Virus record (IMG/VR): IMGVR_UViG_2933953506_000002 | Span: 32,001-96,000 of that record | Direction: 5' to 3' (one strand) | Source: a virus | Lineage: Duplodnaviria > Caudoviricetes | DNA length: 64,000 nt | Shown: positions 22,008-45,623 of the stretch, piece after piece | How positions within the stretch are numbered: the first letter of the stretch is position 1 | How the letters are laid out: each line of letters starts with the position of its first letter | Notes under the pieces: model-generated | The model's database searches: none | Seen by the model: the letters and a program-made list of their open reading frames with translations, nothing else | What the model was told of the DNA's origin: nothing | Program-made: the position numbers and the translations under genes

Positions 22008-22361
22008 GTGACTACTCAGCGAACCTCCTGGGCGCTCGCGCGTGAAGCCGCCGGCCTGTTCCTCACCGCGTTCGGCCTGCTCGGCGTCCTCGTGGCGTTG
22101 GGCGCACTCCACTGGGCCGCCGGACTCTCCGCCGCGATGGCCGGTCTCCTCGCCACGGGCCTGTTCATGCGCCCGAAGCCGACCGCAGCGCCCTGGGCGC
22201 ACCTTGCCCGTGCCGCCGTCTGCATCCTCGGCTACGGCGGTCTCACCGGCTGCGCGTTCGCCCTCTGCACCCCCCTGGGCTGGATCGGCGTCGCCCTGGC
22301 GGTCGTGCTCCTCGGCCTGTGGCTCACCACCCGTGAGCACGAGGACGAGGGGGCCGCCTGA
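22008..22361 (+). CDS. small 4-TM membrane protein upstream of portal
   Basis: duplicated hydrophobic hairpins; stop overlaps the portal ATG (TGATG). Confidence 0.75.
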   Translation: MTTQRTSWALAREAAGLFLTAFGLLGVLVALGALHWAAGLSAAMAGLLATGLFMRPKPTAAPWAHLARAAVCILGYGGLTGCAFALCTPLGWIGVALAVVLLGLWLTTREHEDEGAA

Positions 22362-24820
22362 TGCCCCGCCAGTTCCTCCCCACGCTCCGGGGACTCCTCG
22401 TTCCGCGCTCCGCTGCTCCCCCACCCGCACCGACCGCTGAGACCAAGGACCTGCTCGCGGGCAACGCGTACGTGTCGATGACCTACGCCGGCGTCACGAA
22501 CGTGTGGGGCACGCCCGGCCGAGCGGACGGCTGGGACATGGAACGCGTCATCGTCGAGGGTTACGAGCGCTCCATCTGGACCTTCAAGTCCATCGAGGCG
22601 ATCAGCAAGCACGCCAGCACCCTCCCGATTCAAATCGGCCGAGGCGGAGACGAACGGCGCTTCGAGGAGACCCTCGACGATCACCCGCTGTTGAAGCTGC
22701 TCAACAAGAAGGCCAATCCGCTGGAGAGCGGCGATGTCTTCAAGAAGCGGCTGAGCGCGCAGCTCCTTCTGTCGAAGAAGGGCGTCTTCATCGAGAAGAC
22801 CTACAGCCGTGGCGGCACCCTCGTACGTCTCGACCTGCTTCCGCCGGACCGCGTCCAGATCATCCCCGACGACCGCAACGCCGACTATGTGAAGCACTTT
22901 GAGTTCACGGACTACAGCGGCCACGTCCGGGAGCTGCTGCCCAATCACGTCATTTGGATTCGCGATCCCCACCCCGTCGACCCTTTTTGCGGCGTCACCC
23001 CGCTCGAAGCGGCGGGCCTGTCCATCGACCTGGACGTGAAGGCCCGCACCTACAACATCAGTTTTATTGACAATGACGGCAGACCGGGCGGAATTGTCGG
23101 TATCGACCTGGACGGCGTCGACCAGCGCGAGGTCGACCGCATCCAGAAGCGACTGGCCCCCGGCGCGCACAACGCCGGCCAGCTCACCCTCGTCGGCACC
23201 GGGCCCGGCGGCGTCACCTACGTCGACACCTCCGCCCGCCCCCGCGAGATGGCCTACGAGACGCTGTCCAGTACCTCCAAGGGCGAGATCCTGGCCGCGT
23301 TCGGCGTCCCAGAGAGCATCGTCGGCAATGCCTCCGAGCGGACCTACGCGAACGCCGACCGCGAGGAATACAACTTCTGGGACCACACGGAACTGCCCCA
23401 CCTCAACCTGATCGCGTCCGGGTTCGACGCGGACCTTGATGACGAGTGGATCGTCCGCTTCGACACCTCCAGTGTTCAGGCGTTGGAGTTTCCCCGTCGT
23501 CAGGCCCGGGAGGAAGCCCGCAAGGAGTGGGAAGCCGGCCTCATCACGATCGACGAGTACCGGGAGATCGCGGGGCGCCCGGCATTCAACGTCCCACAGT
23601 CCCGGGCCCTGTGGATCTCTCCGCAGAAGGCCCCCGTCCCCGCCAACGACCAGGACGCCGCCGCACTGGGCCTCGGCCCCGACCCGGCCGCGGGTGGAAC
23701 ACCCGGAGCCGCGCCCACCGGCGCCCCGCTCCCGCCGACCGCTCCGGACACCGCGGCCGCCGACGTCGCCGCCGCCCGCGCTCTGGACGCTGGCCCGAGC
23801 GCCGCCGCGGATGTCGCCGCCGCACGGGCGCAGGGCACTCCCCTCGCCCTGCCTGCCGGTTCGACGGCTACCGACGCCGTCGCCGCGGCCCGCGCCACCA
23901 CTACCGACAGCGGCCCCGGCGACGCGGCCGCCGACGTCGACCGCGCCCGCAGCACTCAGAACGCTGCACTCCCCGGCGACGCCGCCGAGGACGTCGAAGC
24001 CGCACGCGCCACGGTCGAGACCAAGGCCCTGCCCGAGGACGACGGATACGAGGTCACTGACGACGACTTCGACGCTCTGTCTATGGCCGTGGCCACAGCC
24101 GTCACCGCGCTCCTCGCACGCCAGGAAGGCGTCATACTCGCCCGGCTCCGCGCCCCGAAAATCCGCAAGTACACGAGGTACTGGGAGCCAGAGAACGACG
24201 ACGACGTCCGGCACGTCGACACCGACCTCGACCAGGACCGTGTGGTCAGCGCCGCCCGCTGGGCCGAGGAGACCAGCCAATCCCTGACCCCGATCCTGCA
24301 GCAGGCGGCCATCGCCACGGCACGCAAGGTCGGCCAGGCCCTCACCAGCACGGACGAGGTCCCGCCGGCCGCGGCCGCGGCCGCCATTGTTACCGCGGCG
24401 TACGCCGGCGAGGCCATGACCACGTTCCTCCGCGAACTGGCCACCGCCTTGTTCGACGCGCAGCACGGCGTACCGACGATCAGCGACCTCGAGAACACAG
24501 TCGCCTTCTTCTACCGCTCCGCGGCCCCCAGCCTGGTGGCACGGCTGGCCGAAGCCTGCGCCGTGGCGACCATCAACGGCGCCGCAGACGCGGCCGCGGA
24601 GCACGCCGGCCCCGATGTCGTCCGGACCTGGATCACCCGCGGAGACACCCGCGTACGGCCCGCTCACAAGGCGCTCCACGGCACGACGCTGCCCGTCGGC
24701 ACCCCGTACACCGTCGACGGCGCCAGCCTCCGCTACCCCGGCGACCCCTTCGCCCCCATCGCCCTCACGATCAACTGCCGCTGCCGCCTGCACTACGCCA
24801 CCGACAAGGAGCCCCAGTGA
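22361..24820 (+). CDS. phage portal protein fused to C-terminal MuF (phage minor head) domain
   Basis: HK97-like portal motifs (HPLLKLLN..NP, G.TPLEAA, ILAAFGVP..IVG...TYANA, GLITIDEYR); C-terminal RTWIT.GD.RVRPAH...YPGDP...INCRC. Confidence 0.9.
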   Translation: MPRQFLPTLRGLLVPRSAAPPPAPTAETKDLLAGNAYVSMTYAGVTNVWGTPGRADGWDMERVIVEGYERSIWTFKSIEAISKHASTLPIQIGRGGDERRFEETLDDHPLLKLLNKKANPLESGDVFKKRLSAQLLLSKKGVFIEKTYSRGGTLVRLDLLPPDRVQIIPDDRNADYVKHFEFTDYSGHVRELLPNHVIWIRDPHPVDPFCGVTPLEAAGLSIDLDVKARTYNISFIDNDGRPGGIVGIDLDGVDQREVDRIQKRLAPGAHNAGQLTLVGTGPGGVTYVDTSARPREMAYETLSSTSKGEILAAFGVPESIVGNASERTYANADREEYNFWDHTELPHLNLIASGFDADLDDEWIVRFDTSSVQALEFPRRQAREEARKEWEAGLITIDEYREIAGRPAFNVPQSRALWISPQKAPVPANDQDAAALGLGPDPAAGGTPGAAPTGAPLPPTAPDTAAADVAAARALDAGPSAAADVAAARAQGTPLALPAGSTATDAVAAARATTTDSGPGDAAADVDRARSTQNAALPGDAAEDVEAARATVETKALPEDDGYEVTDDDFDALSMAVATAVTALLARQEGVILARLRAPKIRKYTRYWEPENDDDVRHVDTDLDQDRVVSAARWAEETSQSLTPILQQAAIATARKVGQALTSTDEVPPAAAAAAIVTAAYAGEAMTTFLRELATALFDAQHGVPTISDLENTVAFFYRSAAPSLVARLAEACAVATINGAADAAAEHAGPDVVRTWITRGDTRVRPAHKALHGTTLPVGTPYTVDGASLRYPGDPFAPIALTINCRCRLHYATDKEPQ

Positions 24821-25133: not shown

Positions 25134-25163
25134 GCGACGCTAACCACCCGCACTGTGCATGGT
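25134..25163 (+). promoter_or_regulatory. phage late-promoter motif copy (leaderless ATG 25171)
   Basis: GCGACGCTAAC, CATGGT at +24, ATG at +37. Confidence 0.7.
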
Positions 25164-25170
25164 CCGCGCC

Positions 25171-28100
25171 ATGCTGAATCGCCCCACTGCACAGGCTGAG
25201 TCGCAGGACCTGAGTCGCGACCTCGAGGTCAAGGTCACGCGCCGGCCGTGGAACCCTGCCCTGCACCCCCGGGACAGCAAGGGCCGCTTCATCGAGACCG
25301 GCGGCGTGGTGAGGACCTGGGGCGGCAAGCTCGCGCGCGTCATCCGTGCGCTCCCGCACGACCGCATCCTCGTCCAGGACCAGACCGGCCCGGACGAGTT
25401 CCGCGGCCGCAGGCACACCACCAGTGCCAAGTGGGTCAGCATGGTCGCGCGCCCCGACGGCAGCGCGCCCACCGACGACGAAGAGAAGGTCGCCGAAGAG
25501 GACGAGCGGCGCACCCAGGACCCGCGCCGCGGCAACGGCGTTGCCCGCGACGACGACGGCGACCCCAACACCCCGAACGAGCCTCACGACCAGGACGACA
25601 AGGGCCGCCCGATCGGCGCCGATGACGGCGACGGCCCGGACGACGATGACGACCAGGACGAGCCCGAGGACGGCGCCCACCCGGTCAACGTCGATGCCCT
25701 GCCGAACCAGCAGCATGCCGCCGGGGCCCGGTACGCCGATACCGCCGCCGTCCGCCGCCACTTCATGCAGGTAGCCGCCCAGCCCGGCACGAGCACGGAC
25801 ATGGCCACCTTCCTGCGCTCGGTGGCACACGACGACGACCTGCGGACCACACCGTCCGGCCGACTCCTCATCCTCCTCGACGACCGGCCCGAACACGCCG
25901 GCCGCTGGAACCTCACCGCAACCGGCTCCGGACAGCGCGTCGACGCCGCCGGCACCTTTGCCACCGCCGAGGACGCCGCCCGATTCGCCGAACACCTCGA
26001 CAAGACCGCCGTCAACGGTCAGCTCACCAAGTTCCAGCAGCCGTTCGACTTCTCCGACCCACAACTGGACCGGGCCGCCCACGACTGGCGCTCCACCAAG
26101 GGCGAGAACATCCAGGGCGCCATCCAGCGGGCCCGCACGGAGTTCGACGGCACCCCGGCACCCGCGGCCGCGCCGAAGGCCACCACGGACAGCCCGACCG
26201 ACGGCAACGGCCAGCGCTTCAGCACGCTCCAGGCCGTTCGCGCCCACTGGCAGCAGCGCCTCGACCAGATCAACGAACTCGGCCCGGACAGCCTCCGAGA
26301 GCAGCGCGCCGCGCGACACCTGGAAGGCCTGATTGGCAACGACCGGATCAAGCTTGTCGGCCGCGGCCAGTTCGTCGTCGGCCAGGACCAGAACGGCGAG
26401 TGGTACCTGGTCGCCACTGGCAACGGCCTGCCGCTCCGCCGTCGGTGGACCTCCCAGCAGGAAGCGCAGGCATTCGCCCAGTCCTTCACCGAGAACGCCC
26501 CCATGGGCGACGACGGAAAGCCACTGGACCTCTCCGACCCCAACGTCCGCATCGCGACGTGGCGCTCGGACGACAACCGGTCGATCAGCGAGGTCATCGA
26601 CGCGGCCGCCGAGAGGTTCCAGCGCGACGACGCCGCGGAGGGCGGCCCGGAGGCGACCCCGGCGCCGGCCGCCGCTCCGGAGACGCCCGCCGCCCCGCAG
26701 GCACCGGAGACCCCGGAGGAGCCTCAGACGCCCGCACTGCCGGGCAACGCCGAGCCCGTCGAGGGCGTCGAGGGGTACCACTACGTCAACGACGGCGGCT
26801 CAATCACGCTGTACGGCCCGGACGGACAGGTCGCCGCGACCAGCGAGCGCGGCTACCCGCCGAAGGCCAAGATCGACGGCGTCACCGTGCCCGTGCCGCA
26901 GTACCCGAAGCAAGGCGCCGCGGTGATGGCCCGGCTGCACCGCGCCGCCCAGAACCCCGACCAGCGCGACCGGATCACCGCGGCGTGGGTGATGAAGCCC
27001 GGCAAGGAAGGCAAGCCCGCCAAGCGGGTCATGGTCTTCCGCGGCACCATCAAGGGCGACGAGCGGGACTACAGCGCCGTCGGCTCCACGCGTGCCATCA
27101 AATGGGCCCCGTCCCTGCGGGGGTACTCGACCCAGTCGAACATGACCGAGGCCACCCGGGACGAGCGGATTACCGAGGTCCTGTCCAAGCTCGCCCGCCA
27201 GGGCCGCAACATCCACGTCACCGACGAGACCGCCGCGGGCACCCCCAACGCTCCGGCCAACGCCGTCGACGAGACCGAGGCTCTGCGCGAGGCCATCGCC
27301 AACGCGGACGACCCCCGCCTGTCGCAGATGAAGCACGAGCGGTGGGGCATGCTCAACAGCACCCGCTCCGAGGCCAAGCGCAAGCGACTCAACTCCGAGA
27401 TCGAAATGATCAACGAGGAGTTGAAGCGCCGTCGGCAGGAGCGGGACGAGGCTGCCGCCCGGGACGCCACATCGCTCAGCGACGACGACATCGCCAACCG
27501 CATCCGCGAGTCGCAGGAAGAACGCGGCACGTACGGCTCCCGCAGGGGCCAGGAAGCCAACGACGTTGAGCGGGCCATCTACAGCGAGCGCCGCCGCCGT
27601 TCGCAGGCCCTCGTCGACGATGACACCGATCTGACCACGGCCGCTGAGGACGACCTGGTAAAGGCCCGCGAGACGATCGCCGAACGGGTCCGCATGCACC
27701 AGGCCGCCGGCGACGACCCCGAGGCCGAGCGCATCATGCGCCAGGCCCTGCAGGCGCGGCACGACGCCGTCGTCGGCGAGCAGCAGCGCCGCCATGCCCA
27801 GCAGATCGCCGACCGGCCGCCGGTCGTCGACCTCACCGACGAGGAACTGTCGCAGGAGTACAACGACTTGCTCCGGCGCGACTTCCGGAAGGCCCCGCCG
27901 GAGGCGCAGCAGGTCCTCGAGGGCCGCATGGAGGACGTCAAGCGGGAGCGCCGCGACCGGGAGAAGCGGGCTATCACCGACCGGGACGCCCCCGAGAACC
28001 TGAGTGATGAGGACCTGAAGGCGGAGTACACCGAGCTTCGCCGAACGCGCTCCTCGTACACCGGGACCGACGACGTCAAGGCGGCCCGCAAGGAACGCAT

Positions 28101-31100
28101 GGCCGTGCTGGAGGCCGAGCAGAACCGCCGCAGCACTACGCCGGAGGTCGAGCAGCTCGTCGCGCGCGTCGACAACCCCGACGACAACGGCATGATCAGC
28201 ATCGGCGGCGGCAGCGATTACGGCTACGTCGACTACCGGGACCAGACACACGGGCACACGACCCGCGAGATCGGATGGACCTGGGGCAAGCACAGTTGGG
28301 GGCACGCAGACACCGCCTACCCCTCCCGCGCCGCAGCTCTGGCAGCGATGGTCCAGGCGTACGACAACGACCCCGACACCCGCGGTGAGCGCACCTGGGG
28401 CCGTAAGCGCCCCGTGTTCGTGCCGAAGATGTTCGTCGAGCTCTACCAGAACGAGCGTCTTCGCGACCGGCTCGCCGATGCCAGCGAGGAGCGGAAGTAC
28501 CTCTACAGCCTGTTCCGGGACCGGTACGGCTGGGACGACGGCGTGAACCCCCTGGTGCCCAGCAACAAAAAGGGCCACCACATCAAGGGCCGGAAGCTGT
28601 GGGTGCCCGAAGGCCTCCTCGCCGAGCTGAACCGGGTGACGGAGGAGCTTTCCCGGGAGATGTCCGTACGGGCCACGGACCGGGACGCGGACAGTTCCGA
28701 CCGGCAGAAGGCCAAGACCCGGCTCGCGTCCATCAACGTGGCTCTGCACGGCATTGAGGCGCTGCGCGAGTCAGTCCGCAAGAATGGCGGGGACGACGAC
28801 CGGAAGGTCATCTCCCGCGAGGAGATCGAGGCACAGCAGGCCGCGCTCCGTGCAGCGCTGGGAGGCGACGATGACGAACATGTTCAGTCCGATGGTCCGG
28901 GATCACTGGCGGACGTACCGGCCCAAGGAGTGGGCGGCGATGACCGATCCGGAGGCGTTCGTGGAGACGAAGGCCAGGGAGATCGAGACTCAGATTCTGA
29001 AGGCCGAGGAGGCGCTGGAGCAGACGGTTCCGGAGCCGACGGAGTACGAGGAGCAGGTCGGCCGGCACAAGCAGATCAGGGCGGACGCAACGGCGATGGT
29101 CCTGGCGGATCTTCTGCCGGAGCCGGAGCCCGGGGCGGAGACGGCGCCGGAGCAGACGCCGATGGAGCAGCACCTGCAGGAGATCAGGGACCTGATGTAC
29201 GACGCGTAGCGCGGTTCCGGCCGGACCCGGCCGACGCGCCCAAGGGCGCCCGCGCGCGTGCGACGGCCAATGTCGAGGCCATCCGCGTCCTCAAGAAGGT
29301 TGAGGCCGAGAACCGGCCGGCCACCGACGAGGAGCGCCGCATCCTCGCCCGCTGGTCCGGCTGGGGCTCGGTTCCGATCCTCTTCGCCAACGAGCCGAAC
29401 GAGAAGGAGCCCCGCTACCAGCAGGGCGGCACCCGGTACGGCAAGTTCGCCAAGGACCACGAGCGGTGGTCCGAGTACAGCGACATTCGCAGCGAGTTGC
29501 AGCGCGTGCTCACGCCTGTGGAGTTCCGGCAGGCATCCCGCGGCGTGCTGTCCATGCACTACACGCCGCAGCCCATCGCTGAGGCGATGTGGGAAGGCCT
29601 TCGGGCATTCGGCTTCGAGCGCGGCGACGTCCTTGAAGCCGGCTCCGGCGCGGGCACGTTCTTCGGCGTCGCTCCGGACGGCGCCCGCCTGACCGGCGTC
29701 GAACTGGACCCGACCACGGCCCGGATCGCTCAGGCGATCTACCCGCACGCCAACGTTCTCAACGAGTCTTTCGCGGAGACCGACGCCCGGCCGGGCACCT
29801 TTGACGCCGCCATCGGCAACGTGCCCTTCGCTCGGGTCCCGTTCGATGACAAGCGGTACCCGGCAGAGAGCCTTCACAACGGCTTCGTCACCAAGGAGAT
29901 CGCCCTCGTCCGGCCCGGCGGTATCACCGCCGTCATCACCTCCCGCCAGACCCTCGACTCCAAGGGCGACAAGGCCCGCCGCCAGATGGCCAAGTACGGC
30001 GACCTGGTCGGCGCCGTCCGCCTGCCCTCCGGCGTCTTCACCGACGCCGGCACCGGGGTCACCACCGACGTCCTCGTGTTCCGCCGCCGCGAGGACGGCA
30101 CCGAGCCGGCCGACACGTCATGGCTGGACGCCCCTGAGCGGGACATCAACGGCACCGCGCACCACATCAACGCCTACTTCGACGAGCACCCCGAGCACAT
30201 CCTCGGCACGCTCACCACGCAGTCCGGCCCGTACGGGCCCGAGGTGACCGTCAAGGGCGACCCGGCCAAGGCCGCCGAGCAGCTTCGCGCCGCGCTCGAC
30301 GACATCGCCACCAAGGCGAAGGCCGACGGCCGCGGCTACGAGCCGCACCCCGACGGCGACAACCGGCCTCCGGTACAGCTCCAGGCGGCCCGGGAGAAGC
30401 ACGCGAACGACTGGACCGGCCGCCTCTACGAGGGCGACGACGGCCAGTTGTACCAGCACGTGAACGGTGCCGAACCGGTCCTGCTGGAGCCCGCCGACGG
30501 CAACACCGCCCAGCTTCGCGCCCTCATGCAGCTCCGCGACGTCGCCGCCGAACTGCGCGAGCTGGACCGGAAGAACGACGAGGAGGAGCGCGCCGAGGCT
30601 CTGCGCGCCCAACTCCGCGACTTGCACGCCGCCTACGTCGCCGAGTACGGCCCCCTGTCCAAGCCGGGCCAGCACCGCACCAAGGGCGGCCGCCCGACGG
30701 CGTGGGGGTACTTCCGGGCCGACCCGGACGCCGCGGCGGTCCTCGCTCTGGAACGGTGGGACGCCAACAAGGGTGAGCCTGTCCTCTCCCGCGTCTTCAC
30801 TGAGCGCGCCGCGGCCCGCCGACAGCCGCTCTCCTCGACCAACGACCCGAAGGCGGCCCTGGCCGCGGTCGTCGCTGCCAAGGGCGAAGTGGACCTCGGC
30901 GAGATCGCCCGGCTCCTCGACGTCACCCCGCAGGAGGCGGTGAAGCGCCTCGGCAACGAGGTCTTCACCGACCCGGAGACCGGCCGCCTCGAACTGGCCA
31001 GCGCCTACCTGTCCGGCGCCGTCCGCGACAAGCTCGACGCCGCCCGCAAGGCCGCCGAGCGCGACCCGGCGTACGCGGTCAACGTCGCCGCGCTGGAGGC

Positions 31101-34100
31101 CGTGCAGCCGCCGGACCGCACCATCGGCCAGTTCACGCCTGAGATGGGCGCCCACTGGACGCCCCCAGAGCTTCTGCAGGGCTTCCTGCGCGAGTACCTG
31201 GGCGACCGCACACTCCGCGTCGCTCATGACGACCGGTACGGCTGGATTCTCAACACCGGCCGCGTGCCCGAGGCCAACAACGTCATGTACGGCGTCCCGG
31301 CCGTCGAGCCCGACCCGGAAAAGGGCATCAAGGGCAACAAGGGCAAGAACGCCGTGGAGATCGCCCGCGCGATCCTCGGCTTCGGCTCGCTGACCGTCTA
31401 CGAGGACGACAAGCGCAAGGAAGTCGACGAGGCGACCTCACGTCTGATCCGGCAGAAGGCCGATCAGATGCGGGCCGAGTTCGCCAAGTACGCCACGGCG
31501 AACGCCGAGCGGCTGAGCGTCCTCACCGACTCGTACAACCGCATCATGAACGGGCACATCGTCCGTTCGTACGAGGGCATGTCGCCCACCCTCGAGGGCT
31601 TCACCCCCGACCGGAACCCGCACGCCTGGCAGCGCTCCGGCGCGGCCCGGATGCAGTTCGAGCGGGGCGTGATCCTCGCCCATGAGGTGGGCCTCGGTAA
31701 GACGTCCACGCTCGTCATGGGTACCCAGGCCCTCAAGGCGTCCGGGCAGATCGAAAAGCCCATGGCCGTGGTGCCGAACCACCTCGCGCGCCAGTGGTAC
31801 AACGAGGCCCGGTTCCTGTACCCGAACGCCGACATCCACCTGATCACCTCGGCGGACCTGGCCGGCGACCGGCGCGGCAGCACGCTGGAGTGGCTGCGCG
31901 CCAACAGGCCGGACCTGGTCATCTTCACTGAAGAGGCGTTCGGCTCGATCAAGATGAGCCCGGAGGCTCAGGACGAGTACGAGTTCCGGGAGCTGGAGGC
32001 GCTGCGCGAGCAGCTTGACCGCCAGTACGAGGACGCCGACAACCCGAACCACCCGTTCATCGTCGCGAAGATCGAGCAGCGCATCGCGACGGTCAGCAAG
32101 AACATCAACAAGAACGCCGCCCCGATGCGGCGACCGGGTGAGACGTACTGGGACGACCTCGGGTTCGACTACTTCGTCGTCGACGAGGCCCACAGGTACA
32201 AGGGCGTCGGCTTCCGCTCCAAGGAGGGTGGCGGCGACCCGGCGTCTATCCGCGGCGTCGACCTGCACCAGAAGACGAGCGACCTGCACCGCCGCCGCCA
32301 GGGCCGAGCCACGATCACGCTCGCCACCGGTACGCCGCTGTCGAACAGCATCAGCGAGCAGTTCACCATGCTGATGTTCGCGGCGCCGTGGGTGCTGGAC
32401 GCCTACAAGGCGGGCGCCCCCGACCTGTGGGCCAACACCTTCGGCCGCAAGACCCTGCGCATCGAGAACGCCCCCGACGGCTCCGGCCTGCGCGTCGTGG
32501 AGCGGTTCTCCGAGTTCCACAACAAGCGCGCCATGAAGACCATGTGGGGCCTGGTCGCGGACACCAAGCGCGGTGACGACGTCGGCATTCCCCGTCCGAA
32601 GCTCAAGGGCGGCAAGCCGAACCTGATCATGGTCGACGCGACGCCCGACCAGAAGAAGCGTCTCAAGGGGCTCGTCGCCCGCGGCCGCGCGATCCACAAC
32701 GGTGAGGTCGACCGCCACCAGGACAACATGCTCGCGGTGTCCAACGAGGGCACCAGCGTGGCCCTCGACCCGCGGCTCATCGACGCCAAGGCCCCGGCCG
32801 GCAACAAGCTCAAGGCCGTCGCAGACCGGCACATCGAGCGCTACCACCAGAACAAGGACCGGCTCTATCCGGTCGCCCTCGACAGCCTCGTCAACCACCC
32901 GGTACCGGGTGCCCTCCAGATGATCTTCCTGAACGAAGGCGTCCCGGGAGGCAAGAACAAGGGCAACTTCGACGCCTACGCCGAACTCAAGCGGCTCATG
33001 GTCGCGGGCGGCATCCCCGCGGACAAGATCGCCTTCGTTCAGGACGCCAAGAAGTCCGGCAAGCCCGAGGACATGACGGAGCTGTTCCGGAAGGCCCGCG
33101 AAGGTGAAATCGCGGTCCTCATCGGCTCCAGTGCCGTCGCGGGTACGGGCATGAACGCCCAGGACCGCATGATCTCCCTCTCGCACGTCGACCTCGACTG
33201 GGGCGCCGCGCAGATGGAGCAGCGCAACGGCCGCATCCTGCGCTACGGCAATCTGAACCCCGAGGTCGAGATCGACATCTACGCGACCAAGGGCTCCATG
33301 GACGGCTGGAAGGCCGGATTCGTCGCAGCCAAGGCCGAGGGCCTGGTCGACATCCAGCGGCCGGAGCCGGAAGACGGCGACTCCAGCGACGTCGTCCAGG
33401 AGATCGACGGCGCCGAGTTCGACTACGAGACGATGGAAGCCGAGATCGGCGGCAACCCCTACATGAGCCAGCTCATGAAGGCGAAGCGCCGTCTCAAGGA
33501 CCTGGAGATCGACCAGCACAACGAGGCCGCCGAGCGTATCCGTCGCGCCGAAGCCCTCGATGCGCTGCGCCAGGAAGCCCAGGCCACCCGCGACGGTATC
33601 CAGCGCCGCGAGCAGGCCCTGCCCAGCATCCAGGAGGCCGACGACCGGTTCCGCATGACCATCGACGGCTCCCCGTACGGCGAGCGCTCCGACGCCGGCA
33701 AGGCCCTGCACCGGCAGATCACCTCCCGCCTCTTGGAGCACAACCGTGAGGGCCTGAGCGACTGGCACATCCTTGGCCAGTTCCGCGGCCTGGACTTCGG
33801 TGTCCGCACCGAGAAGACAGCGGACGGCAAGCTCGTCGCGCACGTCGGCTTCCCCGACCTGCGGCACTCCGACTTCGAGCGGACCGTGGAGGACCTGCAG
33901 AAGAAGGGCGCCGGGTCGGGCATGATCACCCGCCTCGGCAATGCCCTCGACAAGGCGCCCGCGTTGCAGGAGTCGGACCGGGCCAAGGTGCCGGAGCTGG
34001 ACGAGCAGATAGCCCTGCTCCAGTCCGCGCACGCGGCCGCTGACCTCACTCCGCAGATCGACCACGCCCGCAAGCGGTCGAACCTGCTCGAGGAGATCGT

Positions 34101-37100
34101 CGCCCGCGTCACCAACCTGGACGCGAAGCCGGAGATCGACCCCGACGAACTCGACAAGGAGCGGTACAAGAACAAGGACGACCGCGAGAAGATCGCCAAG
34201 GGGCGGCGCGAGGAACGCGAGCCGCTGCAGGCCGCCGTCGACGAGGCCGTCGCGAACCTGCACCGCTGGGACGAGGAGAACCCGGCACCGGAGCAGGACG
34301 ACACGGTTCGCCTCTCTGAGGACGAGGTGCGCGAAGCTCTTGCCCGTCTCCGCCCGGAGCCCAGCACTACCCCGCAGCCGGACGCCCCGGAGACCAGCGA
34401 CCGCAGTTCCGCGGACGCCGACACCGACGTCGACGAGCCGAACACCGACGAGACGGCGACGCCTGACACCACCGGCGCAGGCAGCAGCGACGAGCCGCTG
34501 ACCGACACGCCAGCCGCGGGCGACACCGGGGCCCAGAACAACGGCCAAGACCAGGACGACGTCGTTCGCCTCTCCGAGGACGAGGTGAACAACACCCTCG
34601 CCAGCATCCAGCCGGACGCCGACACGACCGCCACCGACGAGCCGGACGAGCCCCTTCGGTACGCGTGGGACAAGCCCGAGGACTTCGTCACCCTGACCAT
34701 GCCGGCCGCACTCGTCAACTTCCTGAACGTCGACGAGACCGCCGCCATGGAGGACCCCGACACCCGGAAGGCTCTCAAGGAAGCCAAGCCGGGGCGCCGT
34801 GGCACGCTCCAGGTGACCGGCCCGATCGACGTACACCGCGCCCTCCTCCAGTGGGCATGGACGCTCGAGGGTGGAGAGGGGCTGGAGTCCGACCCCAGCG
34901 ATGTCCGGGCCTACAAGGCGTACGCCAAGCGCATCGAGGAGGCCGACGCCGACCTGCAGCGCCGTCGCGCCGAGCGGGAGACCGCGGCCGCCGCTGACTC
35001 CGACGAGAACGACGACGCCCCGGAGACCGACGGAACGAACGACGGCGGCAGCGACGAGCCGCCGGCCGACGCGCCGAGCACGGCTGAGCCGGGCGACGAG
35101 AACGACGACCAGGACCAGCGCACAGCGGAGGACAGCGACACCGTCACCCTGACCCCGGACGAGGTGTCCGACCAGCTCGACTCTGTACGCCCCGAGGGGT
35201 CCAAGGCCCCGTCCTCGATGGACGATGGCGAGATCCGCGACGAGATCGTCGACCTGATGGGCCGGGAGATGGCTGATGAGCTGTCCGGCGCGGACCGTAC
35301 CCGCCTGCAGGTCCTGGAAGCGGAGGAGGCCCGCCGTGCCGGCCGGGCCCCGAAGCAGGAGCCCAAGCCGAAGCGGACGACCGAGGAGCCCGGAGGACTC
35401 TTCGACGTCGACCAGCCCACCACCCAGCAGCCGAGCAGCGCCGCCGACGTCGACAACCCCGAGGACCAGCCCGACGACCTCTTCGGCACGCCGGACATGA
35501 TCGCCGACGCCGAGGGCCGCAGCACCGAGGGCCTGCGCCCGGCGCGCATGCGCAACGCCGCCGACCTGACCCAGGGCGACCGGTACACCGACGCAGACGG
35601 CCGCACGCACACCGTGTCCGAGCCGCCGGTCAAGACGCCTCGCGGCCGGACCCGACTCGTCACCGACGACGGCGAGGAGCGCTTCTACAACGCCGATGCC
35701 CAGGTGCGCCTGCGCTACCCGGACGAGGAGATCCCCGACAACGAGACCGACGAGCGGTCCGCCGACGACGATGCCGACAACGCCCCGGCCGTCGACGAAC
35801 CGGAGACCTCCGAGCCGGACGTCGACGAGCCCGCCGCCGACGAGCCGGAAACTACCGCGGACAGCGACCGCAGCAGCACCAAGGACCGCGTCGACCGCAT
35901 GTCAGGCCTCATCGACCAGGCCACCGACGGGGCGGGCGGTGACGAGCTGCCCGAGGTCAGCGAGATCCGGGACGCCTTGGGCCGGGCCGAGGACTCCGCC
36001 GACCCGGACGCCGAGCTGCGTTCCGCCGCCGACCGGCTCGACGACCTTGCGGAGATGTACGAGCTGGGAGGCCCGGACGGAGAGCACGCCGCAGACCTGT
36101 TCCGGCAGGCCGCCCGTATCGCGAGGGGCGAGGACGATGACGACCGCCGCGGCGACGACAACGACCGCAGCGAGGACGACAACGACGCCCCCGCCGCGAC
36201 GAACCAGGACTCCGAGGAGGACCAGGACGACGACGCGGGACGCTTGCAGCGGGACGGAGACGGCAACGCCGCCGACCCGAACGGCACCCCCGACGGAGGC
36301 GGCGCCGGTGCGCCCGACGCACCCGCCGACGACGAAGGCGACAGCGACAGCCCCGACGATGCCCCGGACAACGCTGACGACGAGCAGAACGAGCCGGACG
36401 CGGAGGACGAAGACGAGCAGGACGACGACCAGGAGCGCCGTCGCCGGCGTCGGCGCCGCCGCAACGGCGGAGGCGGTAACGGTGGCCCCGGCGGGCCTGG
36501 CGGCCCCGGACTGCCGCGCCTGAACCTCCCCGACCTCAAGACCCCGAACGCCAGCGGCGACGGCGGTGAAGGAGACAGCGAGGACGGCGCTGCCGCCCGC
36601 GGCCGCCGCCCGGCCGCACGGCACCGCGACGTGGCGTCCCTGCGGCGCGCTTGGAAGAACGGCGACGGGCTCACCGCCGCCGAGGACACCCCGGAGCGTC
36701 GCGCAGCCCTGGCCCAGGCAGCCGACCGGGACGGCCTGACGCTGTCCCCGGGCAGCGGCCTGGTCACATGGCCCGAACCGCAGGAAGACGGCACCACCCT
36801 GTGGCACTTCGCGCAGGCCCGGAACGGCAACAACCTGCCCGGCTTGTCCCTGGCCACGGACAACCCCGAGGAGGCCCGCGCCCTGGCTGGCCGCTTCGAG
36901 CAGATCACCGGCAGCGACGGTCAGCCCTTCGACTGGCACCGGCCGTGGGGCCCGAGCACCGTCACCCAGTGGCGCGACGGAGAAGGCCGCAACCTGCAGC
37001 GCGCCCTCCACGCCGTCCGCGACGACTTCGAGCAGCAGCGTGCCGCCTCCGCCCAGCCGGAGCCCACGACGGAGCCGGAACGGAGGGCACTGCCGGACGA

Positions 37101-40100
37101 CCTCACCGGCCTGGACGACGACGAGCTGGTCGACGCGTGGAGCAACGACCTCAGCGACGAGGACCAGCAGCGCCTTATGGCGGAGATGGACCGCCGCGAC
37201 GGCTACACCGACCAGCGCGTTCGTGACGTGCTGCCGGACACCCCGCCGGCCGACGCCGAAGAGGCCGAGCGCCGTGCGAAGGCCGTCGACGAGGCCCTCG
37301 GCTTCGGGGGCGTCGACGTCCCGCGCGTGCGCCGCACCCGTGAGGACATCATCCGTGCGGAGTTCGCCGACTTCGACGAGGCCCGCTACCAGGCCGCCAT
37401 CGACGCCACGAACGGCTACTTCTACGCCCGGAAGTACAAGTACGGCAGCGGCATCAACGAACGAGAGCTGTTCTCCGGCGGTGAACTCGCCAAGTTCGGC
37501 CGCTGGGAGGAGTACGCCAGCGAGGAACTGAAGGACTGGTACAAGGCCAACGGCGGCCGCATCACGTACAACCAGTTCCGGCAGACCTACCGGGACAACG
37601 ATCGCCGGGACCGGCAGCAGTTCGAGGAGGAGCAGCGCCGCCAGGCGGAAGTCGGGCAGACCGAGGAGCCCACGACCCCGGAGACCGAGCCGTACGACCC
37701 GGCCACGCCGCGCTTCGCGGACGAGGCGGCCCTTCGGGATCACATCCGCAGCGGGCAGCTCGACGAGGTGCCCGAGGACCAGCGTGGGGACATTCCCTCA
37801 GCCGAGGAACGCGCGGAGATCGCCGATGCCGAGAGCACCCAGCTCTCCGACGGCGGCCGACTGCTCATCTACGGCAACGAGGCCGGTCGCGCTGGCAGCC
37901 GCCGCGGACAGCGGTTCGACGTGGCCCTTCCAGGCAGCATGCAGCCCCTGTTCCGCAACGGCTTCCACAGCGCCGAGGAGGCCCGCAAGTACGCCAGCGT
38001 CCTCGACGGCATCAAGGACACGGACGGCAACGCGTTCCCGTGGGACGCCCCCAACGTCGCCGAGCGCGCCCGCGCGTTCCGCACCGCCGACGGCAACCGC
38101 CTGTTCGACGAGATCACGGAACGCCTGTACGGCTTCAACGAGCTCTACGAGCAGTGGAACAGCGACCGCGGCCAGGCATTGCACCACCGGACGTGGAGCC
38201 AGCAGGAAGCCGACTGGAACACCCGCGAGGAGGAGGCCGGCTACTCGATCCCCGTCGACCTGACGGACATCCGCCCCGGCGACGAGATCAGCTTCCCCCT
38301 GGCCACGAGCCGCGGGCAGAACACGCGGCCGCAGGACGAGTACGTGGGAACCGTGCACGCCACGGTGACCGGCGAGGGAGAGCCCTTCCAGTACCGCTCG
38401 CAGTTCTCCGCCTTCGGGAACCAGCAGCTCTACCGGTTCCCGGCCGAAGGCTCTTGGACCAACCAGTACGGAGAGCACAGCGAGATCGATGAGGCGTTCC
38501 CGAACCTGGGAGTCGTCCGTCGCCGCCCGCGGCCCGACGAGGTGTCCAGCACGGGCGACGGCCGCGACGACCGTTCGTCCCGCGCGGACACCCCGCAGGC
38601 GGAGACGCCGGGCACCGCGACGCCCCCCTCGCGCCGGCAGCCCGCCCCGGACCGCGCTCCTGCGGAGCCGGAGCCCGCCGTGCCCTCGGCGCCGGCCGAC
38701 GAGCCGCAGGGTGAACCCGAGCCCGTGGGCGGTCAGCCCGCACACTGGGCGCGTGTCCGCGACCTGGTGCCGGGCGACATGGTCCGTATGGAGGGCCGCA
38801 CGAGGAACGGCCGCGCCATCACGCGGTCTGGTTACGTCTTCACCGGGCCCGTCGACGTGGAGGTCACTCGCAACGGCCGCACGGAGCGGATGCTGCGCAC
38901 GTACGTCACGGAGAACCCGGACGGCACCGGTAAGAGCGGCAACGTCTTCACGCCGCTGAACGCCACCGCGGCGCGGGCCGAGGCGCCCGACGACGTGGTG
39001 CCCGGGTCTCCGGCCAGCGGCGCTCAGAGCACCGTTCAGGCGGGCAGCCTCCCCGACGTGGTCCCCACGGACCGGAACGGCCGGGGCTTGTTCCCGGGTA
39101 GCACCGTCACCGGTGTTGACGGGCTGCGTACCCGTGAGGGCACCGTCACGGGCGCCACCAACACCACGGTGTCGGTGCGCTGGGACAACGACGACACCGC
39201 CGACGGCCTCTCGCCGAACACCCTCACCGTAACCGGTGGCGACCGCCCCGACGGCTGGACCTCGTCCGGGCAGCGCGTGACCCCGCGGCACATCGTAACC
39301 GACACCGAGGGCGCTCTCCTCGGGCCAGTCGACGAGGTCAACGGCGACCGCGTCACCATCACCACCGCCGAAGGCACCATCACGCGGAGCGCCGGAGACC
39401 TCCGCGTCGCCGGCGAAGTGCGCGACGACGCCCCGGGCACCGACCCCGTCACCGGCATCGACGACCCGGCGGCCGCGGACCTCAAGGAGGACGACGTCGT
39501 GGTCCTGGACCTCGACGGCACGCCGACCACCGTGGCGGTCACCGGTATCAACCGCGAAGGCGACCGCGTCACCATCGACTTCGCCGACACCACCACGGGC
39601 GAGATCGGCCAGATCGACGTGGACGCCTCCCAGGTCATCCCCCGGGCCCAGGGCGCCGACGGCACCCCGCCCGACCTCGGGCCGGACGACGCCCCAGACA
39701 CCCCGGACGACCTAACCGTGCACGAGCCGCCGCACCGCGTCGAACCCGTCACCGGCCCGACCGTCGACCCCGACCTCACGACGGGCGACCGAGACGTCAT
39801 CGGTGACCTCGCCGACGGCCCGGACGACGACCCCGACGCCCAGCAGGCCGCCGTACGCATCACGGCCGACCTGCCCGTCACCCCGGAGCAGGCCGCCGCA
39901 CTCGCCGCGCAACTCCGCGATTCCGCCGACCCCTCGACCCCGGAGGGCCGCGCCGCCCTGCGTGCCGCCAACCACCTTGACCGGGCCATCGGCCGGACCC
40001 CTCCGCCCGAGCTCAACCGGCCGCGGCCGTCGAACGCCGCACAGGTCGCGGAAGACGACACGATCGCCATCCCCGACAACCAGGGCAACGGCGTACGCGT

Positions 40101-45399: not shown

Positions 45400-45472
45400 G
45401 TCGCGCGACCCAGCTTCCCCCGCTCTCGGTGCCTTTCCAACGGCATGACGAAAAACCGCAGGTCAAACCTAT

Positions 45473-45508
45473 GCGCTGCCCGCTCTTGACTCCCTGAGCG
45501 GGCAGCGC
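45473..45508 (+). terminator. perfect 13-bp hairpin between protease and capsid genes
   Basis: GCGCTGCCCGCTC-TTGACTCCCT-GAGCGGGCAGCGC; abuts the GCGACGTTAAC motif at 45509. Confidence 0.6.
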
Positions 45509-45623
45509 GCGACGTTAACCCCTCTCTCCCTCTTCACTCCCGCCTCGCGTTGAGGCTGTCCCGGTGCTGGCCGGGCGGAGCGACGCACGTCAACCGCACC
45601 CCAGCACCAGGGAGAGAGCAGCA

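What the first reader, a model, noticed from the sequence alone, without database searches (positions are those of the whole stretch)
28861..29209. Complete second gene nested out-of-frame inside the giant ORF (dual-coding DNA)
Seen: GGAGG (28861), ATG (28871) and TAG (29207-29209) define a 112-aa globular-looking protein with typical high-GC3 codons (MTNMFSPMVRDHWRTYRPKEWAAMTDPEAFVE...EYEEQVGRHKQIRADA). Over the same interval the giant frame switches to A/T-ending codons (GAT, GGA, CGA, GTT) and a G/D/A/R low-complexity linker, yet has no stop. The nested gene ends right where the MTase domain begins. It resembles TnpV-like proteins found beside MTase-helicases (recalled, not searched). Inference: an ancestral 'small gene + MTase-helicase' unit was fused to a virion-targeting N-terminus by reading through the small gene, and both frames are maintained. 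The small protein may be a chaperone or inhibitor of the enzyme.
Basis: partly seen in the sequence, partly recalled or inferred. Interest (0 to 1): 0.85.

Follow-up and report, generated by a model that had tools for sequence, protein, structure and literature searches.

The report
Small gene nested inside giant prophage gene
A 112-residue TnpV-like gene sits in another reading frame inside a 5,686-residue prophage gene, both frames look maintained by selection, and the same nesting recurs in related genes on actinobacterial plasmids and prophages, where annotation usually misses one of the two genes.

Summary
GGAGG (28861), ATG (28871) and TAG (29207-29209) bound a 112-aa ORF in the +1 frame of a 5,686-aa ORF (25159-42219). 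This is the only stretch of the giant ORF where its own GC3 collapses (0.33-0.5) while the nested frame has GC3 of 0.88-0.97.

Both frames appear to be maintained:
- The small protein is conserved with the same start and stop in 35 Streptomyces loci and folds confidently (pLDDT 87).
- The host frame has no stop inside the nested gene in 36 of 36 sequences. Chance gives about 0.3 per sequence.
- T-ending codons are avoided exactly where they would create host-frame stops (0 of 50 against 27 of 86 alignment columns, p=8e-7).
- Four-fold codons are skewed to G (0.76-0.85 against 0.32-0.39 in the flanks), and synonymous divergence is about 40% lower than in the flanks.
- The host-frame product is a predicted disordered Gly/Asp/Ala/Arg tether.

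In about 1,800-aa plasmid relatives the methylase-helicase ORF already starts about 80 nt upstream of the small gene and reads through it. So the nesting predates the phage fusion.

"TnpV-like" holds only as remote similarity. The small protein's function is untested.

The parts
25159..42219 (+). Giant ORF of 5,686 aa: a polyvalent protein with a DarB-like N6-adenine methylase plus SNF2 helicase pair
   Evidence: ORF list. Pfam N6_Mtase, SNF2-rel_dom, ResIII and Helicase_C hits. GC3 of 0.85-1.0 everywhere except 28819-29298.
25159..28869 (+). N-terminal extension of 1,237 aa with no recognised family, conserved in the Streptomyces prophage relatives
   Evidence: 0 PHROGs families and only a sub-threshold DUF6158 hit in Pfam. 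The host frame is open from about -3,400 to -4,200 nt in 33 of 35 loci. dN/dS is about 0.47.
28861..28866 (+). Shine-Dalgarno-like GGAGGC, 5 nt before the nested ATG. The host frame reads it as Gly-Gly using the codon GGA.
   Evidence: Sequence. GGGAGG or GAAGGGG is conserved upstream of the nested start in the 35 loci, and GGAG-type runs in distant relatives.
28871..29209 (+). Nested gene of 112 aa plus TAG, in the +1 frame of the giant ORF. It encodes a TnpV-like helical protein.
   Evidence: Translation. GC3 of 0.88-0.97. 10 protein clusters at 58-96% identity. Same start and stop in 35 loci. AlphaFold2 pLDDT 87.1. Profile search gave 1,243 cluster representatives at E<=1e-3.
28870..29211 (+). 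Host-frame codons across the overlap (about aa 1238-1351 of the giant protein): a Gly/Asp/Ala/Arg-rich tether predicted to be disordered
   Evidence: Translation and composition. pLDDT of 31-36 with no secondary structure over residues 79-196 of the 343-aa model. Stop avoidance and G3 skew.
29212..30147 (+). Conserved N-terminal helical region (ARFRPDPAD...RWSGWGS) followed by the N6-adenine methylase domain
   Evidence: Pfam Methyltransf_25 at aa 1491-1561 and N6_Mtase at aa 1535-1663. Alignment A4 has many invariant columns. 17 of 401 genomes hold a relative.
31654..33249 (+). SNF2/ResIII helicase core and Helicase_C
   Evidence: Pfam SNF2-rel_dom at aa 2168-2218, ResIII at aa 2166-2348, Helicase_C at about aa 2635-2697.
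22361..24820 (+). Portal protein with a C-terminal Mu F-like domain, two genes upstream of the giant gene
   Evidence: Pfam Phage_portal 5.2e-42 and Phage_Mu_F 4.8e-5.
43471..46913 (+). Prohead protease (with a NUDIX domain) and major capsid protein, downstream of the giant gene
   Evidence: Pfam Peptidase_S78 1e-10, NUDIX 3.4e-17 and Phage_capsid 2.9e-30.

Best explanation
This is true dual-coding DNA.

A small gene for a 112-aa, all-helical, TnpV-like protein is fully nested in the +1 frame of a 5,686-aa polyvalent gene. That gene has a 1,237-aa N-terminal extension followed by a DarB-like methylase and SNF2 helicase. It lies in the head-morphogenesis module of a Streptomyces prophage.

Shown:
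- The nested frame is the one with normal codon statistics and a foldable product.
- The host frame crosses it as a disordered, net-acidic Gly/Asp/Ala/Arg tether.
- That tether is kept open and biased to G-starting codons by selection on the nested gene's synonymous sites.
- The methylase part has no start codon of its own near the nested stop, so it can only be made by translating through the nested gene.
- The arrangement is ancestral to a whole actinobacterial family. Plasmid and chromosomal relatives of about 1,800 aa start about 80 nt upstream of the small gene, with a short conserved N-terminal peptide, and read through it in the same way.

Inferred:
- The small protein is made by independent initiation at its own Shine-Dalgarno and ATG inside the large mRNA.
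- It acts together with the methylase-helicase, as an accessory subunit or regulator. Nesting would then guarantee co-inheritance and co-expression.
- The tether tolerates the overlap because only flexibility and charge matter for it.
For: Nested frame:
- GC3 of 0.88-0.97 against 0.33-0.54 for the host frame.
- 35 homologous loci at 55-98% identity share the start (ATG or GTG after GGGAGG or GAAGGGG) and the stop (TAG, once TAA).
- pLDDT of 87.
- 1,243 cluster representatives at E<=1e-3, all returned as small proteins of 88-303 aa among the 150 listed.

Host frame:
- No stop inside the nested gene in 36 of 36 sequences.
- The ORF is continuous from more than 3.4 kb upstream to the locus end in 33 of 35 loci.
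- Chance gives about 0.3 per sequence.
- T-ending codons: 0 of 50 columns in stop-creating contexts against 27 of 86 elsewhere, p=8.3e-7. In distant relatives, 1 of 274 against 57 of 802.
- Four-fold codons: G/(G+C) of 0.76-0.85 against 0.32-0.39 in the flanks, p=1e-9 to 1e-14 in 6 of 6 tested Streptomyces-type sequences. The skew is present in 11 of 12 distant loci.
- Four-fold-site divergence of 0.228 (bootstrap 0.174-0.293) against 0.386 and 0.369 in the flanks.
- All three codon positions evolve at 0.18-0.21, whereas flank third positions evolve at 0.34-0.38.
- No host-frame start codon lies within about 40 nt of the nested stop. Group II loci have none inside the nested gene at all.
- Overlap residues have pLDDT of 31-36.

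Family-wide nesting:
- 12 of 12 distant loci.
- 3 further loci with a longer nested ORF.
- 8 plasmid loci.
- Of 17 genomes among 401 with a relative of the methylase part, 16 also have the nested gene, and the 17th is a 215-aa fragment.

Link to the enzyme: in an Iamia plasmid the small frame runs in frame into the methylase and is annotated as one CDS.
Against: - There is no direct evidence that either product is translated. No Ribo-seq or peptide data were available, and the one RNA run laid did not cover the nested gene.
- For the window alone, the open host frame is what chance gives about one time in three.
- NG86 dN/dS in the overlap is high in both frames (0.71 nested, 0.94 host). Selection on each product's amino-acid sequence is therefore moderate. 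The equal rates at all three codon positions could in principle also come from relaxed constraint plus a younger coalescence of this segment.
- Two of 35 loci break the pattern. L018 has a frameshift just after the nested stop, and L009 is a relic that keeps the small gene but only about 240 aa of the large one.
- The loci were mostly found by searching with the small protein. Only one search tests the reverse direction.
- The function of the small protein is unsupported by fold searches (best Z of 6.0, generic helical hairpins).
- The Iamia fusion is a single case and could be an assembly frameshift.
Confidence: 0.8

Rival explanations
1. Artefact of high G+C. The giant ORF is really separate genes (N-terminal gene, small gene, methylase-helicase gene), and the host frame is open across the small gene only because the -1 frame of a high-GC3 gene rarely contains stops.
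For: The -1 frame of real genes here is stop-free over 113 codons in 318 of 909 windows. The analytic P(open) for the window is 0.28. PGAP-annotated plasmids do call the small gene separately and start the large gene downstream.
Against: - The upstream coding frame has no stop codon at or near the junction in 33 of 35 loci.
- The conserved methylase start (RFRP...) has no start codon within about 40 nt, and the nearest downstream ones lie 55-60 codons into conserved sequence.
- Stop avoidance is significant across columns (p=8.3e-7).
- The G3 skew and the 40% lower four-fold divergence are not expected for a single-coding gene.
- The conserved N-terminal peptide upstream of the small gene in plasmid relatives is in the host frame, at varying distance.
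Confidence: 0.05
2. Recoding. The TnpV-like segment is a domain of the giant protein, reached by programmed frameshifts into and out of the +1 frame. Or ribosomes that start at the nested ATG shift -1 near its end to make a TnpV-methylase-helicase fusion.
For: In the Iamia plasmid the small frame continues in frame into the methylase. This shows that such a fusion protein can be encoded.
Against: - The start with its Shine-Dalgarno and the TAG stop are conserved in 36 of 36 sequences.
- No X XXY YYZ heptamer in the -1 phase occurs anywhere in the nested gene in 0 of 36 sequences.
- The C-terminal tails of the small protein vary in length and sequence in distant relatives.
- Stop avoidance in the host frame would be pointless if ribosomes left that frame.
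Confidence: 0.05
3. Selfish insertion. The small gene is a mobile element that inserted into the large gene in a way that keeps the host frame open, like the out-of-frame HNH 'ShiLan' insertions in actinophage methylase genes.
For: The analogy with PMC11855218 (abstract and outline read): an insertion read through in frame by a phage methylase gene, hiding an out-of-frame gene.
Against: - No nuclease or other mobility domain was found (0 Pfam, PHROGs or NCBIfam families).
- The position is the same, immediately before the conserved methylase start, in every relative examined.
- No empty site was found. 16 of 17 genomes with the methylase relative carry the nested gene, and the 17th is a fragment.
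- Divergence of the small gene tracks that of the flanks.
Confidence: 0.04
4. Decaying region. The segment is under little selection in either frame, and the equal substitution rates at all three codon positions reflect neutrality plus recent exchange between prophages.
For: Equal p-distances of 0.187, 0.208 and 0.178 at codon positions 1-3. dN/dS of 0.71 and 0.94.
Against: - No frame-breaking indel or stop occurs in either frame in 36 of 36 sequences down to 55% protein identity.
- Strong GC3 periodicity persists.
- The fold is confident.
- The profile reaches 801 clusters at E<=1e-10.
- The same architecture is seen across several actinobacterial orders.
Confidence: 0.03

Closest known systems
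DarB-type methylase plus SWI2/SNF2 'dyad' polyvalent proteins of phages and conjugative elements (Iyer et al. 2017, PMC5512222; passages read)
   Same: An N6-adenine methylase and an SNF2 helicase sit in one very large polypeptide. The gene lies among the portal/MuF, protease and capsid genes of a prophage. Gigantic actinomycete examples on plasmids are described.
   Different: That paper's main text has 0 occurrences of 'TnpV', 'overlapping' or 'out-of-frame'. Its supplementary files were not seen. The nested gene, the read-through tether and the short N-terminal peptide of the plasmid forms are not described there.
ShiLan-type out-of-frame HNH endonuclease hidden in actinobacteriophage DNA methylase genes (PMC11855218; abstract and outline read)
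   Same: A complete gene with its own start and stop lies out of frame inside a phage methylase gene. The host frame reads through it without stops, as a loop or linker.
   Different: ShiLan is a sporadic, homing insertion that encodes a nuclease. Here the nested gene has no nuclease domain, sits at a fixed position before the methylase region, and is present in essentially all relatives examined.
TnpV of Tn4451 and Pfam PF14198
   Same: Small proteins of about 110 aa on mobile elements. Relatives of the nested protein are named 'TnpV protein' in RefSeq plasmids. PF14198 is the only recurring Pfam match.
   Different: The window's protein does not match PF14198. PF14198 found 0 of 401 actinomycete genomes over its cut-off. 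TnpV of Tn4451 was postulated to act in excision by likeness to lambda Xis (PMC3158075, passages read). The model here is a helical hairpin bundle and gave no informative fold match. Whether firmicute TnpV genes are ever nested was not examined.
Classical fully nested same-strand gene pairs: lambda Rz/Rz1, phiX174 B in A and E in D, Bacillus comS inside srfAB (recalled, not searched)
   Same: A small gene with its own start lies wholly inside a larger gene in another frame, and both are functional.
   Different: Here the overlap is 336 nt, and up to about 750-1,000 nt in one subfamily. The host is 17 kb. The host-frame product is a disordered tether. The pair is conserved across plasmids and prophages of many actinobacterial genera.

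Membership tests
Pfam TnpV (PF14198) | Match to the family HMM at or above the gathering score (27 bits) | tested here: not met
   The window's protein had no PF14198 match at E<=0.01 or E<=10. Relatives: 4 of 8 distant ones at 12-17 bits, and 8 of 93 at E<=1e-3, best 1.5e-6. 0 of 401 genomes were over the cut-off.
Pfam TnpV (PF14198) | Remote homology (same superfamily) shown by profile or naming evidence | tested here: inconclusive
   PF14198 is the only recurring Pfam family. RefSeq names plasmid relatives with 47-57% identity to a distant family member 'TnpV protein'. The nearest Atlas clusters are named TnpV, with scores of 0.91-0.93. No profile-profile comparison with bona fide TnpV could be run.
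DarB-like methylase-SNF2 polyvalent proteins | N6-adenine methylase and SWI2/SNF2 ATPase in one polypeptide | tested here: met
   Pfam N6_Mtase at 21.7 bits (cut-off 20.4), SNF2-rel_dom at 31.1 bits (24.9) and ResIII at 24.9 bits (22.5). Helicase_C at 21.1 bits is below its cut-off of 23.5.
DarB-like methylase-SNF2 polyvalent proteins | Encoded within a portal-terminase head module or a conjugative transfer context | tested here: met
   Portal/MuF lies upstream, prohead protease and capsid downstream. Plasmid relatives lie beside T4SS coupling protein, ArdC-like, relaxase or ParA genes.
DarB-like methylase-SNF2 polyvalent proteins | Packaged into the virion and delivered with the DNA | not testable with these tools
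   Needs virion proteomics.
Same-strand nested dual-coding gene pair | Both frames open, with a start and stop for the inner gene, conserved in relatives | tested here: met
Same-strand nested dual-coding gene pair | Selection acting on both frames | tested here: met
   Nested frame: GC3, conserved ends, fold. Host frame: stop avoidance at p=8.3e-7, G3 skew at p<=1e-9, four-fold divergence of 0.228 against 0.37-0.39.
Same-strand nested dual-coding gene pair | Both products translated | not testable with these tools
   No Ribo-seq or peptide data. RNA contigs laid did not cover the nested gene.
ShiLan-type homing insertion | Encodes a homing (HNH) endonuclease | tested here: not met
   0 families in Pfam, PHROGs and NCBIfam. 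The model is all-helical.
ShiLan-type homing insertion | Sporadic presence or absence among close relatives of the host gene | tested here: not met
   16 of 17 genomes with the methylase relative carry the nested gene, and the 17th is a fragment.
Programmed -1 ribosomal frameshift | Slippery X XXY YYZ heptamer in phase | tested here: not met
   0 of 36 Streptomyces-type sequences have one anywhere in the nested gene.

The most novel reading that the evidence does not exclude
The nested pair is a built-in expression device for an early-acting anti-restriction enzyme. Two start sites in two frames on one mRNA compete, so the ratio of TnpV-like protein to methylase-helicase is set by translation. 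The small protein is an obligate partner that gates or targets the enzyme. The overlapped tether links the enzyme to its delivery or recruitment module. That module is a virion-associated N-terminus in phages. In plasmids it is a sliding-clamp-binding peptide of the QL[S/D]LF type, which would bring the methylase to newly replicated incoming DNA. TnpV-family proteins would then gain their first defined function.
Probability: 0.2. Interest if true: 0.85.

Novelty: new variant of a known kind. Interest (0 to 1): 0.72.

Why it matters
1. This is a well-supported case of long same-strand dual coding (336 nt, and longer in one subfamily). It is conserved across a large family of mobile-element genes in Actinomycetota, and it comes with a clear comparative signature: stop avoidance, G3 skew and suppressed synonymous change. 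Such cases are rare outside small viruses, and they are useful for calibrating methods that look for hidden overlapping genes in high-G+C genomes.

2. It exposes a systematic annotation error. Some records call the small gene and start the large gene downstream, losing its conserved N-terminal peptide and tether. Others call only the large gene and lose the small one. In none of the 8 annotated plasmid records examined were both called overlapping.

3. It ties the uncharacterised TnpV-like proteins of actinobacteria to DarB-type methylase-helicases. That gives a concrete and testable hypothesis for both.

4. It illustrates how a disordered tether can host a second gene.

Tried and rejected
- **Family scans of the 112-aa protein.** Pfam, PHROGs and NCBIfam found nothing.
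- **Phage searches.** tblastn of the 112-aa protein against 50,697 phage records gave no match. blastn of 3 kb against the phages gave only short methylase matches of 5% coverage in 4 records.
- **Fold searches of the small-protein model.** Foldseek against PDB gave no match at E<=0.001. VIA-align wide gave a best Z of 6.0, with generic helical hairpins and nothing standing out. An Xis-like winged helix was therefore not seen, but it is not excluded by these searches.
- **Sequencing runs.** All runs are kept as contigs. A DNA contig of another strain (X2) spans the stretch with 55 substitutions and no indel, which agrees with the frames being real. The single RNA run (X24) laid one clean 241-nt contig at 27981-28221 and nothing clean over the nested gene. 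This says nothing on expression of either frame.
- **The first simulation timed out.** It was replaced by an exact dynamic-programming calculation.
- **One search gave a wrong control value (0.685).** One interval was entered out of phase. One search corrects it to 0.350.
- **Some P(open) values are unreliable.** Those for L057 and L060 (and also L055) are affected because the downstream gene used for codon usage is broken there. The L009 value is unreliable for the same reason.
- **Three weak small-protein hits** (L052-L054, E>1e-3) looked spurious: the coding signal was in another frame. They were dropped.
- **L055 was left out of alignment A2.** Its small frame runs on to 207 aa and its host frame is interrupted.
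- **Literature.**
  - 'TnpV' gave 38 papers, 20 listed, none on actinobacterial nesting.
  - 'TnpV'+'helicase' gave 2 unrelated papers.
  - The nested/overlapping/out-of-frame/conjugative plasmid/Actinobacteria/methyltransferase query gave 5 papers, of which only the ShiLan paper is close.
  - On these searches I found no description of this nesting.
  - Subscription journals and supplementary files were not searched.
Full report
**What is there**

The window is 64 kb of a 115.8-kb record that IMG/VR classes as a provirus, with 69% G+C. On the + strand a single ORF runs from 25159 to 42219, 5,686 aa.
- Pfam finds an N6-adenine methylase (aa 1491-1663), an SNF2/ResIII helicase core (aa 2166-2348) and a sub-threshold Helicase_C hit.
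- The first 1,237 aa match nothing in Pfam or PHROGs.
- The gene lies downstream of a portal protein with a Mu F-like C-terminus (22361-24820) and a short 81-aa ORF. It lies upstream of a prohead protease/NUDIX protein and the major capsid protein.
- This is the setting described for virion-packaged "polyvalent proteins" with the DarB-type methylase-SNF2 pair (PMC5512222, passages read).

**The observation**

GGAGG at 28861, ATG at 28871 and TAG at 29207-29209 bound a 112-aa ORF in the +1 frame of the giant ORF.

Per-frame GC3 shows a clean switch. The giant frame has 0.85-1.0 on both sides and 0.33-0.54 inside, while the nested frame has 0.88-0.97 inside. This is the only low-GC3 stretch in the 17-kb ORF.

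The host frame reads the interval as 36 Gly, 20 Asp, 18 Ala and 11 Arg of 118 residues.

**Is the nested frame a gene?**

Yes, as far as sequence can show.
- Ten protein clusters of 105-112 aa at 58-96% identity exist, all from Streptomyces where named.
- 21 genome loci and 14 viral-contig loci encode it.
- Start (ATG or GTG preceded by GGGAGG or GAAGGGG) and stop (TAG, once TAA) are at the same places in all 35.
- With a 16-sequence alignment, AlphaFold2 gives pLDDT 87.1 and five helices.
- A profile search of 1.84 billion representatives finds 1,243 at E<=1e-3 and 801 at E<=1e-10. The 150 listed are 88-303 aa long.

**Is the host frame kept, or just open by chance?**

In a high-GC3 gene the -1 frame starts each codon with the gene's third base, so stops are rare. 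For one sequence the open frame is therefore unremarkable.
- The exact probability under synonymous resampling with flank codon usage is 0.28 for the window, and 0.11-0.46 for most relatives.
- The empirical rate for 113-codon windows in real genes is 318 of 909 in the window and 1,468 of 4,754 in homologous flanks. One search had a phase error.

The comparative data are another matter.

(a) There is no host-frame stop inside the nested gene in 36 of 36 sequences. In 33 of 35 loci the host frame is continuous from 3.4-4.2 kb upstream to the end of the locus.
- L018 is one exception. It has a frameshift just after the nested stop.
- L009 is the other. It is a relic with only about 240 aa of the large gene.

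(b) Codons ending in T are used at 3-8 of 43-57 eligible sites per sequence when the next codon does not begin AA, AG or GA. They are used at 0 of 20-31 sites when it does.
- Counted by alignment column, to blunt relatedness, this is 0 of 50 against 27 of 86 (Fisher p=8.3e-7).

(c) At four-fold codons the nested gene uses G rather than C: G/(G+C) of 0.76-0.85 against 0.32-0.39 in the flanks of the same ORF (p=1e-9 to 1e-14 in 6 of 6 sequences tested).
- G at these sites makes the host codon start with G (Gly, Ala, Asp, Glu, Val) rather than C (Arg, Pro, Gln, His, Leu).

(d) Synonymous change is suppressed.
- Four-fold-site divergence is 0.228 (bootstrap 0.174-0.293), against 0.386 and 0.369 in the flanks.
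- Median NG86 dS is 0.31, against 0.65 and 0.54.
- The three codon positions evolve at 0.187, 0.208 and 0.178, whereas flank third positions evolve at 0.377 and 0.344.

(e) The conserved start of the methylase part (ARFRPDPAD...) follows the nested stop by one codon and has no start codon nearby.
- The nearest host-frame ATG/GTG/TTG downstream are mostly at +164 to +179 nt, inside conserved sequence.
- One group of loci has none inside the nested gene.

The enzyme can therefore only be made by translating through the nested gene. The host-frame product of the overlap is predicted disordered: pLDDT of 31-36 and no secondary structure for residues 79-196 of a 343-aa model, with helices at pLDDT 60-90 on both sides.

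**Evidence against, stated fully**
- dN/dS is high in both frames of the overlap (0.71 and 0.94). Part of this reflects the lowered dS.
- Equal rates at the three positions could also arise from weak constraint plus recent exchange.
- No data show translation.
- Most loci were found with the small protein as query.

**The family-wide picture changes the evolutionary reading**

A profile of the Streptomyces proteins found the gene in 16 of 401 genomes sampled from the class. 13 of these, counting G001 itself, were at E<=5e-7. I fetched 18 kb around the 12 new ones.
- In all 12 the small gene (MNRYG... type) has GC3 of 0.87-0.98.
- The -1 frame is open across it, and continues into a large ORF with GC3 of 0.87-0.96 in 11 of the 12; in L060 that frame is broken soon after the small gene.
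- In the unfused forms the large ORF (1,791-1,989 aa) begins with an ATG 76-82 nt upstream of the small gene. It encodes a short conserved peptide, crosses the small gene as a Gly/Ala/Asp/Arg/Pro-rich stretch, and continues into FRPxxQDDLAPSG, the same methylase start.
- Two loci (L059, L063) have long N-terminal extensions like the window's.
- The same codon signatures hold. T-ending codons occur at 1 of 274 stop-creating sites against 57 of 802 others, and the one exception is in the broken locus L055. The G3 skew is present in 11 of 12.

Searching in the reverse direction, the methylase part found relatives in 17 of the same 401 genomes.
- 13 had been found with the small protein.
- Two more (G050, G104) have a divergent small-protein match by an HMM of alignment A3.
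- One (G392) has a similar, longer nested ORF by inspection.
- One is a 215-aa fragment.

In that third subfamily the nested ORF is about 250-350 aa, and the host frame has low GC3 for about 750 nt.

On plasmids, tblastn found 69 records in Streptomyces, Arthrobacter, Nocardia, Micromonospora, Kocuria and others. I examined eight loci.
- Seven have the host frame open across the small gene.
- Four continue into ORFs of more than 1,300 aa, one into 766 aa, and two are truncated.
- In the Iamia plasmid the small frame itself runs in frame into the methylase and is annotated as one 1,760-aa CDS. The usual host frame stops 602 nt in.

So read-through of the small gene is ancestral to the family. 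The prophage form adds a long N-terminal extension upstream of an existing nested pair.

**Annotation**

GenBank pTC2 calls one 1,829-aa "putative helicase" from 76 nt upstream of the small gene, and no small gene. RefSeq records call the small gene ("TnpV protein" or "hypothetical") and start the large gene 78-255 nt after the small gene's annotated end. In at least two of these this omits the conserved start seen. None of the eight calls both as overlapping.

**What is the small protein?**
- PF14198 (TnpV) does not match the window's protein.
- It matches 4 of 8 distant relatives below threshold, and 8 of 93 family members at E<=1e-3.
- It finds 0 of 401 genomes over its cut-off.
- RefSeq naming and Atlas cluster names point the same way.

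I therefore call it TnpV-like, not a member by Pfam's criterion.

TnpV of Tn4451 was only postulated to act in excision (PMC3158075, passages). Fold searches gave nothing specific.

A role together with the methylase-helicase is inferred from three things: strict co-occurrence, the fixed position, and the single Iamia fusion.

**How it most likely works**

Shown: two conserved, overlapping reading frames, with selection signatures on both.

Inferred:
- The large mRNA is translated in the host frame to give N-terminal module, disordered tether and methylase-helicase.
- Independently, ribosomes start at the internal Shine-Dalgarno and ATG to give the small protein.
- The tether tolerates the overlap because only openness, flexibility and charge matter.
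- The small protein is an accessory or regulator of the enzyme.

Rivals, with my confidence in each:
- GC artefact: 0.05.
- Recoding: 0.05. No slippery heptamer in 0 of 36 sequences.
- Homing insertion like ShiLan (PMC11855218): 0.04.
- Decay: 0.03.

**Novelty**

Nested genes are known, and the host protein class is known. A TnpV-like gene nested in the tether of this enzyme family across actinobacterial plasmids and prophages was not found in print by my searches, nor in the main text of PMC5512222. Supplementary files and subscription journals were not seen.

Noticed in passing
L056-L058, L060-L062 about 80 nt upstream of the small gene; L063, L064; L080, L082, L083 N-termini; L087-L090, L068, L069: The unfused plasmid and chromosomal relatives of the large gene begin with a short conserved peptide containing QLSLxxLW, QLSLW, QLTLW, QLSFxALW, QLSLDDLL, QPDLFS or (Iamia) QLSLF. 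These resemble the sliding-clamp-binding consensus QL[S/D]LF / QxxLF quoted in PMC12309361. The window's giant protein has no such motif by a regex scan. Binding was not tested.
   Followed up: partly
L087 (Iamia sp. plasmid NZ_CP050949.1), locus 3501 onward: The TnpV-like frame continues in frame into the methylase-helicase and is annotated as one 1,760-aa CDS. The usual -1 frame, which carries a QLSLF motif, ends 602 nt in. This is either a natural fusion or a frameshift in the assembly.
   Followed up: partly
L080, L082, L083 (G050, G104, G392): A third subfamily has a much longer nested ORF (about 250-350 aa, with a TnpV-like core plus extra N- and C-terminal parts). It overlaps about 750-1,000 nt of low-GC3 host frame. 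The large gene there starts with a QPDLFS-type peptide.
   Followed up: partly
window 43471-45399: The prohead serine protease (Peptidase_S78) ORF also carries a NUDIX domain, an unusual fusion in a head module.
   Followed up: no
window 20214-21380 and 15651-16553: A GT4 glycosyltransferase (also matching the 'GT4-conflict' family) and a TauD-family dioxygenase lie just upstream of the portal gene. They are possible DNA- or virion-modification functions.
   Followed up: no
window 25159-25330 (N-terminus of the giant protein): The giant protein starts with ...WNPALHPRDSKGRFIETGG. From memory, an HPRD..GRF-type motif recurs in actinophage head-associated proteins. This was not checked with any tool ('HPR' has 0 occurrences in PMC5512222).
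   Followed up: no
L009 (NZ_JBEXXS010000053.1) and L018 (NZ_JBNJLY010000001.1): L009 keeps an intact small gene inside a relic that retains only about 240 aa of the large gene. L018 has a 1-nt frame change in a C-run just after the nested stop, which splits the large ORF.
   Followed up: partly
L090 (Micromonospora plasmid) and the Streptomyces viridifaciens plasmid hit H22: Relatives of the nested pair sit at the head of even larger genes (a 15.5-kb 'UvrD-helicase domain-containing' CDS). One is on the plasmid species that PMC5512222 cites for a 12,242-aa protein. An ArdC-like gene lies immediately upstream in Micromonospora.
   Followed up: no
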